Source: Octopus vulgaris
Lineage: Eukaryota
Assembly (NCBI GenBank): GCA_951406725.2
Contig: OX597817.1
Coordinates: 9,486,001 to 9,550,000 of the forward strand
Reading direction: 5' to 3'
DNA length: 64,000 nt
Part shown: positions 3,270 to 63,084 of the stretch, piece by piece
Layout of the letters: every line of letters begins with the position of its first letter
Position numbering within the stretch: position 1 is the first letter of the stretch
Position numbers and translations under genes: made by a program
The notes under the pieces: generated by a model
Told to the model about the DNA's origin: nothing
What the model saw: only the letters and a program-made list of their open reading frames with translations
The model's database searches: none

Positions 3270-3270
3270 A

Positions 3271-5500
3271 TATTAAGGTAAAAACAGTTAATGTCTGGTC
3301 ATAAGAGTGACCATTGGTTTCGCATCCACGAAAACCGTAGCCTCATGGACAACTCATCAGACTCTAGTCTGAGGACAAAATTAACTCTTCATCTCTCGGA
3401 GGTGAAAAAAATGTTACGGTAAATGGTTAAAAGATCATCAGAGAATAAATGGGCCGGCAAGCGAAGACAGGTTATCTCCCCTAGACCAGCTATTTGAGAG
3501 CTATCTTTCTAATGGATCGTAAGGACTCTCCGAGCTTACTAAGTGATCGGGGAGTCCCATGATTGCAGGTAGCGCTTGAAATGGATACATGTGAGGAAGA
3601 TTTCTTGAGTATTCAGCGACCCAGGTTTTAGGGAGTTTTTATGTATCGTAGTTCGCTCAGCTGTGCAGAGCTCGCAAAACCCGCTCCCGTGATGTAGGAG
3701 CCCGACCGTTCTAAGATCTTCCACTTGATGTCGTATGTCTATTGATCTTTGAGGAGCCACACATGGCTGGCGAAGGATGTGACGAATCGCCTTTCAGGGA
3801 CCCTGATTGAAGACCTGTGGTACCCGCAGATCCGATGCATTTCCAGATTTGGGTGTTGGCTGTGTTCACACGGTTGGCTCCGGGCCTGGGGATGTTATTG
3901 TTATCACTGGTGCTGTTGGTGTCCGCATGATCATCTCCGGCTGTAGTGCTGGTGTTTCTGCTGCTGTTGTTGCATCCGATGCCGTCGATGTTGTTGGATA
4001 ATCCGTTGCTGCTATTACTGAAATCACTAGACCTGGGTATCATCACAGCTTCATAAATGACTCCCTAAGTCTCGCATTTGCCTCCCACTGGACAGTCATT
4101 GTACGCCCTGCAAGAGCAACCTGCCTCTTCCCGTGTTTTATGAGTGTTAGCTAATATACTTTTCGTGTTAGGGACACAGTTAAAGGAGACCCTTATGCTG
4201 TGCCTATTGAATAAACGTCTGTATCTGTGCGTCAGCGTGAAGTGTTTGTCTATTAACCTGAGGAATATCCTTCTCTCACAAGTCTTAATCCTTGAGAGAG
4301 AAGGGTGGGGCAAACTAAACCACGTTTTTGCGGCGCTTTAATTTGTGGGTGCTAGGACCTGGCATGAAGGAGATGTGGTCCTTAAACAACCCATTTGACG
4401 CCAGTATCTCGTTGTAGCAGGGGGCGGCGGCGTCGAAGATATCTTGACTAGAGGATAGATTCGAGATCCTATTACTGATAGCCTTCACTCGATTCTTGAA
4501 TACGATAGTGGGGTGGTAGGAGGCTAAGTTGATATAGGATGACTTTTTGTTTGACTTGCGGCAAGGCCTGTGTGTACCAGAGTCCACGGCTAGAGTGGCA
4601 CCTAGGAAATCTACGGTGGTGAGATTCGTCTCGATAGTAATTTTGAATCCCATGGAGCCTATGATACTATCCAGGTCCTTTCTAAGTCTATCGAGCGTGT
4701 TGCTATTGGCTCCTCTAGAGATTGCTAGAGCGTCATCCCAGTAGAAACCGAAGAGGACCGAAGGGAATTCCTTCCCTAAGGTGTCCAGGATGGATAGACC
4801 AATTAGATCACGTACGTCGGCGCTGTTGTAGGCTCGCATAGCTACATCGAAGGACCTCTCGTGGTCAGATTGCTTGACCCACATCGAATCTTTATTGAAC
4901 AGCATCGTCTTCCTGGCATGCATTATACCGTCTATATCTCCATCGCTGATATCTGTGAAGCCTTTAGCAAAGGAAAGTGCCGTGCCTCTATCAACAACCC
5001 TTTGATATCGACAGGTAAAAATCGACTATCTCGAATTGTGTGAACCTTGCTCTACACCTTCCCCGGTTAACATTTTACCATGAGGTCACCTCTTTGGTGT
5101 TGCACCATAGAGAGAGGCCGGAGGCTCTCCCTATGTCGTCATTAATCTTCCTCAGTATATGCTTGCTCGCTTGGCCGAGCTCGGATTTAGCCGGTTTGAT
5201 CAGATGGCATTTGGAGTGAGAGACAAAGTTTGGCTTGTGGTCTTTTATTGTGATAAAGGCATTTCTCTTGGCTAAAATTTCTACCCTATCCGCTCTACCT
5301 AGGTTTGTTTTCACAGTTAACGTTATTGTATCTTTTCGGGTAAGTGCGCTTGTATTTTTGTGTAATGCAATCGTCTAAAAGTCTATGGTAAGTGTGTGTA
5401 CCTATCCTGTATTTGTTCTTAGTCTTATCCGAGAAGATTAAGGACCTGTCGGAGCTTTCTATTCCTTGTATGTCATCCACACATTTTTCGTTGATGTCCT
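3271..5500 (-). mobile_element. Penelope-like element, Naiad-like, decayed RT plus GIY-YIG plus 3' hammerhead
   Basis: ITIKDHKPNF...LIKPAKSELG, FDVAMRAYNSADVRDLIG, FYWDDAL, VDFLGATL, YINLASYHP, CSCRAYNDCPVGGKC, VIY...CIG and CELCTAE...LN...CIH. Confidence 0.88.
3304..3365 (-). ncRNA. Type I hammerhead ribozyme (intact core) in the PLE 3' region
   Basis: Minus strand AGAGU-CUGAUGA-[stem II with UCCAUGA/UCGUGGA and a c(UACG)g loop]-GAAA-CCAAUGG-UC-ACUCU. GUC cleavage triplet, 5-bp stem I. Confidence 0.85.
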
Positions 5501-61467: not shown

Positions 61468-61708
61468 AATATTACCGTTAAAAGCGTGAAATGGTAATGA
61501 TTTTTCGAGGATAACTGACGAAGGGTGAGCATACCCATGTCTTGTTTGTTAATTTTCCGTTTGTTCCTTTGTCGTCCTTCAGTTCAATTTTTTAAATATT
61601 ACCGTTAAAGGCGTGAAATGATAATGATTTTTCGAGGATAACTGACGAAGGAAGAGCATATGCATGTCTTGTTTGTTAATTTTCCGTTTGTTCCTTTGTC
61701 GTCCTTCA
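61468..61708 (+). repeat. Tandem duplication (127-bp period) carrying a hammerhead-like remnant
   Basis: 61468-61581 is similar to 61595-61708. Each copy has ataa-CTGACGA-...-TC-ttgt but lacks GAAA. Confidence 0.85.
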
Positions 61709-62352: not shown

Positions 62353-62441
<89 letters not shown>

Positions 62442-62533
62442 TTTTTTTATATCTTACCAGCGTTTCCTTCATCATATATGCAGTAATCACATTCAGTTAA
62501 AATAACCTATTGATGTGTTTTGTTTCTCTTTTT

Positions 62534-62620
62534 TTCCCTGATGAGAAGATCGCATTGTTTTACATTATTTTGTCTCTTCTGGAATAATAACCAATGTTTT
62601 CTTCGAAACATATGTCGGAA
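62534..62620 (+). ncRNA. Type I hammerhead ribozyme (intact core, long stem II)
   Basis: UUCC-CUGAUGA-GAAGA...(CAUUG/CAAUG, AUUAUUUU/GGAAUAAU)...UCUUC-GAAA-CAUAUG-UC-GGAA. Confidence 0.82.
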
Positions 62621-62723
62621 GTATAAAGATTTGAATAACACCCGTGTTTAACTCCATTTCTTTATTTATCTATGTAATATAAAATCAGAAATATTAAATT
62701 TCTAAACGTCTCAAAGAGACATG

Positions 62724-62800
62724 AGCGGTGGTGGAGCGATAGAGTGGTTGTATACTGTCAACTTAACGTGACAGTCCCGTATGGGAATTACACCACCGCT
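62724..62800 (+). other. Cloverleaf-like structured segment
   Basis: agcggtggtg/caccaccgct 10-bp closing stem enclosing ctgtca/tgacag and tccc/ggga hairpins. Confidence 0.5.
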
Positions 62801-62990
62801 GTTTAGCCCTAGGAATCTTCGAACGCTTCCTGTCGGCTTTGACACATTTCCTGTGTCCTTATATAAAATCATTTCACTAAACCTTGGAATTTCTACCGTT
62901 ATAAGTAGGCTGTTACATCCTTGGTATTCATGTGAATTTTTGCTGCCCTGGTAACTACTTTTTTTCCATGTTATTGTACACATTGAAAAA

Positions 62991-63084
<94 letters not shown>

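What the first reader, a model, noticed from the sequence alone, without database searches (positions are those of the whole stretch)
62534..62620. Orphan intact hammerhead ribozyme with a 60-nt extended stem II
Seen: all conserved core nucleotides (CUGAUGA, GAAA, GUC), 4-bp stem I, palindromic stem III (ACAUAUGU) and a 60-nt multi-helix stem II, with no PLE ORF nearby. Known: PLE and retrozyme type I hammerheads have short palindromic stem III and are thought to cleave as dimers, usually with a short stem II. Inference: this marks a PLE pseudo-LTR or a non-autonomous retrozyme family with an atypical architecture.
Basis: partly seen in the sequence, partly recalled or inferred. Interest (0 to 1): 0.75.

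Follow-up and report, generated by a model that had tools for sequence, protein, structure and literature searches.

The report
Long-armed hammerhead of a Penelope retrotransposon
This predicted self-cutting RNA is not an orphan: it is the clipped, likely dead tail of a Penelope-like jumping gene with thousands of copies, whose lineage kept an unusually long second arm, a design carried by most such motifs counted in this genome and missed by the standard RNA library.

Summary
The hammerhead motif is real (core 62538-62544 and 62605-62608, predicted cut after C62616, 60-nt stem II), but it is neither an orphan nor a retrozyme. It sits in a 5'-truncated 3' end (62442-62992, split by a younger 180-bp insert) of a 2.75-kb Hydra-related Penelope-like element. 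Younger relatives have intact 775-904-aa RT/GIY-YIG frames and 99.9%-identical 3.6-kb tandems. Old copies mutate the core as fast as the flanks, so this copy is likely inert. Along the subfamily series, however, the core stayed fixed apart from one U4C side branch, and stem II stayed 53-60 nt with compensatory changes. The stem III palindrome changed to another palindrome, as expected if it cleaves as a dimer. The far tip of stem II is only weakly constrained. Long stems II are the majority design here: 30,951 motifs against 10,139 short ones (controls 297 and 204). Rfam and the published descriptors miss them. The lineage lacks the Hydra CxCX5C linker yet still inserts at (TA)n. Cleavage is untested, and RNA reads and copy ends show no pile-up at the cut. 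The scan noted long-stem motifs before on other DNA (e1-8669291, e1-8673761, e1-8664355, e1-8667016). Verdict: new variant of a known kind.

The parts
62442..62687 (+). 5'-truncated 3' end (3' UTR / pseudo-LTR) of the Penelope-like element, first piece
   Evidence: 84-92% identity to other copies; aligns to family positions 2396-2634 of about 2750
62527..62537 (+). 5' strand of stem I (predicted 5 bp + internal loop + 5 bp)
62538..62544 (+). catalytic box CUGAUGA
   Evidence: invariant along the subfamily series except N7 and one U4C side branch
62545..62604 (+). 60-nt stem II: helix IIa (5 bp), 2x2 loop, helix IIb (6 bp), asymmetric loop, distal hairpin. The distal hairpin carries three private changes in this copy (62572, 62574, 62575).
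62605..62616 (+). GAAA box, palindromic stem III ACAUAUGU (62608-62615), predicted cut after C62616
   Evidence: self-duplex -7.0 kcal/mol, monomer hairpin +2.4
62617..62629 (+). 3' strand of stem I
62684..62864 (-). nested younger insertion: 3' tail of another repeat family that carries its own short hammerhead further upstream (not included in this copy); 11-nt direct repeat at 62677-62687 and 62861-62871
62865..62992 (+). rest of the element's 3' end
62993..63081 (.). (CA)n(TA)n microsatellite at the 3' junction, the likely target site

Best explanation
The motif is a type I hammerhead lying in the 5'-truncated 3' end of an old copy of a Hydra-related Penelope-like retrotransposon; this copy is likely inert, while in the element's tandem transcripts two such motifs are predicted to pair through their palindromic stem III and would cut after the NUH triplet to free unit-length RNA. 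SHOWN: family membership; a 2.75-kb element with RT and C-terminal GIY-YIG; intact young tandems with one motif per unit, 267 nt upstream of the next start codon; no constraint on the core after insertion; a conserved core and compensatory stem changes along the subfamily series. INFERRED: cleavage itself; the dimer; target-primed copying into (TA)n from two start sites (about +55 and +210 from the cut). The long stem II is likely a folded extension. Selection acts on its two core-proximal helices, the far hairpin is loosely constrained, and it probably has no separate catalytic role.
For: Family: 2,892 first-look candidates, 40 scored. 20 of 30 loci picked by the upstream coding region carry the motif downstream. 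Inverted second arm in 11 of 28 loci; partial tandem in L063 and inverted 5' copy in L061. Protein: DKT, FDI, YRDD, GIY-YIG-type VYQC..YVG, CxxC, CxH; the predicted fold's best matches are telomerase RTs (E 1e-8). Young copies: many stop-free frames of 899 aa, tandem units of 3,624 bp at 99.9% identity. Selection: 91% of cells paired, 8 of 23 pairs and 34 cells with two-sided change, against 13.8 cells in shuffles and 6-19 in slid controls. A neutral-drift simulation reached the observed stem II energy and closure in at most 0.6% of runs for 6 of 6 targets. Stem III centre UA (28) to UG (3) to CG (2), always self-pairing. Inert copy: core 5.2% against flank 5.2% mutated in 35 copies, 12.6% against 8.7% in 18 more; core intact in 22 of 35 and 6 of 18. 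Low dimer-dependent cleavage of PLE hammerheads is reported in PMC4209133.
Against: No cleavage was measured. RNA reads from a related organism lie in both directions and show no ends at the cut; none lay on the young element (no test). Of 70 short young copies scored by eye, 12 begin at -2..+1 of the cut, the second-highest of eleven 3-nt bins (highest 15 at +8..+10), so there is no clear pile-up. Whole units contain read-through motifs. A recently amplified side branch with intact 775-aa frames carries U4C in 13 of 14 rows and a G-U or weak base of stem II. In a lizard PLE, cleavage was dispensable for insertion in vitro (PMC11167929). The number of pairs with two-sided change is not above shuffles (61 of 500). 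The 33 rows were hand-picked as consensus-like from 115, and they are related. The distal part alone is not significant in the youngest subfamilies (P 0.27-0.83).
Confidence: 0.82

Rival explanations
1. The fold is kept mainly as a binding or packaging signal for the element's protein, or as a translation aid for the downstream ORF, and the long stem II is that signal; cleavage is slow or incidental.
For: A U4C branch still amplified. No end pile-up. Cleavage dispensable in vitro in PMC11167929. An asymmetric 5' bulge recurs in most subfamily folds. Hammerheads promote translation initiation in fungal viruses (PMC13725137).
Against: All other core positions are invariant over a series in which stem II changed by 14-25 substitutions. 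Stem II sequences of other long-stem families are unrelated. The distal part is weakly constrained. In a type I motif stem II leaves with the upstream fragment unless the RNA is circular.
Confidence: 0.2
2. The long stem II is neutral growth of a loop that tolerates insertions; only closure of helix IIa is selected.
For: Distal-only simulation P 0.01-0.12 in 10 of 13 targets and 0.27-0.83 in the three youngest. Register shifts in the distal hairpin. Families with spacers from under 15 to 69 nt coexist.
Against: Helix IIb shows two-sided changes. Length stayed within 53-60 nt across the series. Deletion derivatives are few: 71 short matches, many of them other families, against 3,092 long.
Confidence: 0.3
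3. The stretch belongs to a non-autonomous retrozyme of short tandem, ORF-less units.
For: Most copies are short and ORF-less, as is this one. Retrozymes derive from PLE ends (bioRxiv 10.64898/2026.07.22.740005, abstract and first part).
Against: 5' ends are ragged and run into coding sequence. 0 of 28 first-found loci hold only direct repeats of the motif. Direct repeats are spaced 2.8-3.7 kb.
Confidence: 0.04
4. This particular copy was co-opted by the host as a functional ribozyme.
For: Core and helices IIa and IIb are intact.
Against: An intact core is common by chance (22 of 35, 6 of 18). The distal hairpin is degraded and a second element inserted 70 nt downstream. It has no nearby partner for dimer formation.
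Confidence: 0.03

Closest known systems
Hydra-clade Penelope-like elements, including Hydra-1_Obim of Octopus bimaculoides (Craig et al. 2021, PMC8557442; sections 6 and 11, passages, supplement part 2 and search hits read)
   Same: Single RT-EN ORF, DKT, divergent RT4, no CCHH, CxxC and CxH, (TA)n insertion, inverted 5' copies, partial tandems, type I hammerhead in the 3' end.
   Different: CxCX5C linker absent (6 of 6 intact proteins), RWK reads RWL, young units are 3.6 kb. Stem II is 53-60 nt against 10-24 nt in the 26 Hydra rows of File S2. The motif differs from that of Hydra-1_Obim (22-nt stem II, ACCA-A-UGGU).
Minimal type I hammerheads of metazoan PLEs (Cervera and de la Pena 2014, PMC4209133; parts 1-2 of 4 and supplement passages read)
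   Same: Type I topology, short palindromic stem III, G10.1-C11.1 in most subfamilies, mostly single dispersed truncated copies, proposed dimer.
   Different: Their descriptor caps stem II plus loop at 7+10+7 nt, so these motifs could not be found; stem III here is an 8-nt palindrome.
Hammerheads of spike-moss PLE-X1 elements (File S2 of PMC8557442, rows marked as deviating)
   Same: PLE hammerheads with a stem II region of about 50 nt (9+35+9 in PLE-X1_sMoe): a precedent for the long arm.
   Different: Plant, EN-less, rDNA-targeted elements, single examples; no covariation series reported in what I read.
Metazoan non-LTR retrozymes (PMC7229834, passages; bioRxiv 10.64898/2026.07.22.740005, part 1 of 5)
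   Same: Type I hammerhead in an animal repeat.
   Different: Those are 170-400-nt ORF-less tandems; this family is autonomous.

Membership tests
Type I hammerhead ribozyme | Core CUGANGA, GAAA, NUH in order with three helices, helix I open | tested here: met
Type I hammerhead ribozyme | Match to an Rfam hammerhead model | tested here: not met
   likely because of the 60-nt stem II (inference)
Type I hammerhead ribozyme | Site-specific self-cleavage | not testable with these tools
   indirect signals inconclusive
Penelope-like elements (EN+) | Single ORF with telomerase-like RT and GIY-YIG endonuclease | tested here: met
   Pfam itself is blind: best RVT_1 E 0.02 on a family fragment, GIY-YIG E 0.002 on a relative
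Penelope-like elements (EN+) | 5' truncation, partial tandems (pLTR), inverted 5' copies, optional tail | tested here: met
Penelope-like elements (EN+) | Hammerhead in the pLTR | tested here: met
Hydra clade | DKT in place of DKG; divergent RT4(B) | tested here: met
   compared by eye with the alignment lines
Hydra clade | CCHH absent; CxxC and CxH around the conserved E and N | tested here: met
Hydra clade | RWK motif | tested here: inconclusive
   RIRWL in 3 of 3 lineage proteins; several relatives also vary at this position
Hydra clade | CxCX5C linker between RT and EN | tested here: not met
   absent in 6 of 6 intact proteins; a CxC..C motif is present in 8 of 8 database relatives. Filed therefore as Hydra-related, not as a member.
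Hydra clade | Insertion into (TA)n | tested here: met
   67 of 86 copies against 15 of 66 control stretches
Hydra clade | Generally under 3 kb | tested here: inconclusive
   2.75-2.86 kb in older and side branches, 3.62-3.68 kb in the youngest
Hydra clade | Placement in the RT phylogeny | not tested
   reference proteins not available to the tree tools
Non-LTR retrozymes | ORF-less short tandem units | tested here: not met

The most novel reading that the evidence does not exclude
Cephalopod Penelope-like elements have made a 40-70-nt structured stem II the dominant hammerhead design (over 30,000 motifs, many unrelated families, invisible to Rfam and to the published descriptors), and the arm is a selected add-on domain that recruits the element's protein or drives translation from a circular unit RNA. 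The same lineage targets (TA)n without the zinc-finger linker proposed to do that targeting.
Probability: 0.25. Interest if true: 0.68.

Novelty: new variant of a known kind. Interest (0 to 1): 0.42.

Why it matters
The single copy is ordinary debris. The lineage is useful for three reasons. It gives a graded series of natural compensatory changes, including a palindrome swap, that bears on the open question whether PLE hammerheads work as dimers. It shows that published counts of animal hammerheads are biased by descriptors that cap stem II. And it offers an apparently still-active element (identical tandems, intact frame) that lacks the linker proposed to aim these elements at (TA)n yet keeps that aim, which makes that hypothesis directly testable.

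Tried and rejected
Rfam: nothing. tRNA scan: none, so no support for a tRNA-derived SINE reading of the insert. Pfam and PDB sequence searches are nearly blind to this protein. RNAalifold on the MAFFT alignment recovered only 9 pairs because gaps misplace helix IIb. The tree of 115 motif contexts includes non-homologous flanks and two unrelated rows, so it was used only as a rough ladder. Run search: no RNA holder listed. Reads on the young element: no test. Copy ends at the cut: 74 matches, 4 dropped as internal deletions or diverged, 70 scored by eye, no clear pile-up. Links of the other long-stem families to PLE proteins were found for only 2 of 40 loci within 1.5 kb upstream (8 of those 40 rows are this lineage, whose 3' UTR is long and whose copies are mostly truncated), so their nature is not established here. 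Lunse et al. (PMC5785218) is not held and is known here only through a review passage (PMC6765202). One supplementary file of PMC4209133 was not searched and most of the PMC8557442 archive (59 parts) was not read; either could hold long-stem examples.

Full report
Observation. The bases are as described: UUCC 62534-62537, CUGAUGA 62538-62544, a 60-nt spacer, GAAA 62605-62608, the palindrome ACAUAUGU and C62616, then GGAA. The spacer folds as a long irregular hairpin (z -2.7 against shuffles). In the ensemble of 62500-62650, stem I pairs with probability about 0.68, helices IIa and IIb with 0.76-0.85, and stem III as a monomer with 0.01. Stem I is predicted to extend beyond 4 bp through an internal loop. 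The whole stretch is not more stable than shuffles (z -0.87), and Rfam reports no hammerhead at either threshold.

It is a repeat. The window lies in a 2.8-Gb genome of 227 contigs. An octopus host is my inference: one of the closest database proteins, and the only one named for an animal, is from Argonauta hians, and a second element in the window resembles Hydra-1_Obim. A search with 62441-62760 gave 2,892 first-look candidates; of 40 scored, the best place at each of the 39 other loci was 85-91% identical over about 240 bases. Copies have ragged 5' ends, and 11 of 28 have an inverted second arm. Longer copies run upstream into a GIY-YIG region. Of 30 loci picked by that coding region, 20 carry the motif about 1 kb downstream. 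The full element is about 2.75 kb, with an inverted 5' copy in L061 and a partial tandem in L063. The window copy is 62442-62687 plus 62865-62992 and ends in (CA)n(TA)n. No related coding sequence lies in the 10 kb upstream or in the 9 kb from window position 63001 onward. It is an ordinary 5'-truncated insertion, later interrupted by a 180-bp piece of a younger family (2,713 candidates, 94-97% identity).

The protein. An RT fragment found 82 relatives of about 610-760 aa at 30-43% identity, and in the genome many stop-free frames of 778-908 aa at 66-76% identity. Fetched copies show head-to-tail units of 3,624 bp at 99.9% identity, one hammerhead per unit, with the cut 267 nt before the next start codon. 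The predicted structure (mean pLDDT 69) matches telomerase RTs best. Motifs follow the Hydra clade as defined in PMC8557442 section 11: DKT, divergent RT4, no CCHH, CxxC and CxH. One defining feature fails: the CxCX5C linker is absent in 6 of 6 intact proteins and replaced by a low-complexity stretch, while 8 of 8 relatives keep a CxC..C motif. I therefore call it Hydra-related. The paper associates that linker with (TA)n targeting, yet 67 of 86 copies here have (TA)5 or more within 420 nt after the cut, against 15 of 66 control stretches. The ends cluster near +55 and +210, which fits two reverse-transcription start sites as described for a lizard PLE (PMC11167929).

Selection on the motif. 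Individual old copies show none. Core positions are mutated at 5.2% against 5.2% in flanks (35 copies picked by likeness to the window) and 12.6% against 8.7% (18 copies picked by coding region); 22 of 35 and 6 of 18 keep a whole core. The window copy differs from the majority at 13 of 225 columns, three of them in the distal hairpin. Along the subfamily series the picture differs. An exact pattern with a 39-69-nt spacer has 3,092 matches (control 0) and shows discrete subfamilies; the 8-38-nt version has 71. I aligned 33 consensus-like natural copies, hand-picked from 115. 91% of cells pair; 8 of 23 pairs and 34 cells change on both sides, against 13.8 cells in shuffles and 6-19 in slid controls; the count of pairs alone is not above shuffles (61 of 500). 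The rows are related, so these are not probabilities. Clear paths include A-U to G-U to G-C in IIa and C-G to U-A in stem I. The centre of stem III goes UA to UG to CG. These two bases would be unpaired loop in a monomer, but pair in a dimer (duplex -7.0, -6.0 and -10.3 kcal/mol); this is one event. Random changes as numerous as those separating subfamily A from six later ones reached the observed energy and closure in at most 0.6% of runs. For the part beyond IIa the signal is weaker: P 0.01-0.12 in 10 of 13 targets and 0.27-0.83 in the three youngest.

Against a simple cleavage story. A recent side branch with intact 775-aa frames and 2.85-kb tandems has CCGAAGA in 13 of 14 rows. U4C is reported to lower activity strongly in vitro yet suffice in a viroid (PMC3088659 passage). 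Raw RNA reads from a related organism (116, 102 and 57 laid, from about 6% of each run, mostly under 90% alike) lie in both directions with no ends at the cut; none lay on the young element, which is no test. Among 70 very short young copies, 12 begin within -2..+1 of the cut, the second-highest bin and confounded by microhomology. PMC11167929 found cleavage dispensable for insertion in vitro.

How unusual is the long arm? In File S2 of PMC8557442 all 26 Hydra rows have 10-24 nt, but a spike-moss PLE has 53 nt. The descriptor of PMC4209133 caps the arm at 24 nt, so the literature is ascertained towards short arms. In this genome a general core pattern gives 30,951 matches with 39-69 nt and 10,139 with 8-38 nt (reversed controls 297 and 204). 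They fall into many sequence-unrelated families with different palindromes, and most sampled spacers fold as long hairpins. I did not establish which elements those other families belong to. Seven paper searches found no report of long-stem hammerheads in cephalopods, and a recent octopus repeat annotation has no occurrence of 'ribozyme', 'hammerhead' or 'Hydra' in its main text (PMC13282606). Subscription papers and unread supplements could hold such a report. Earlier notes of this scan reached a similar census; my counts were made before I saw them.

Verdict. A real, probably once-functional PLE hammerhead in an inert truncated copy. The identity is near certain; dimeric cleavage is inferred; a special role for the long arm is possible but the distal part is only loosely held. 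New variant of a known kind, interest 0.42.

Noticed in passing
window 3270-5400, minus strand: Decayed copy of a second Hydra-type PLE (36-48% identity to database relatives; resembles Hydra-1_Obim by eye) with its own hammerhead: core from 3360, 32-nt stem II, stem III ACCA-A-UGGU, predicted cut after 3309.
   Followed up: partly
window 62684-62864, minus strand; L069, L072: Nested younger repeat (2,713 candidates, 94-97% identity) with inverted partial arms; longer copies carry a short-stem hammerhead upstream.
   Followed up: partly
L116-L125, L130, L131, L142: Recently amplified side branch with intact 775-aa ORF and 2.85-kb tandems whose hammerhead core reads CCGAAGA (U4C) in 13 of 14 rows.
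   Followed up: partly
L127, L128, L129, L145: Apparently active young subfamily: 899-aa stop-free frames, 3,624-bp tandem units 99.9% identical, no zinc-finger linker, N/S-rich insert grown to about 150 aa.
   Followed up: partly
G000 genome-wide: At least 41,000 exact hammerhead cores with a 4-nt stem III loop, three quarters with a 39-69-nt stem II, in many unrelated families.
   Followed up: partly
L136 892-935 and 1452-1495; G000:C1 13.96 Mb and 14.26 Mb: Family of short-stem hammerheads repeated directly about every 560 bases, a retrozyme-like arrangement.
   Followed up: no
lineage copies: 3' ends cluster at about +55 and +210 from the cut, a tail of about 155 nt, longer than the 30-40 nt described for other PLEs.
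   Followed up: partly
L045 1-960: Tandem array with a period of about 29 bases, matching a short stretch of this element's 3' UTR in inverted orientation.
   Followed up: no
window 61468-61708: 127-bp duplication, 94% identical.
   Followed up: no
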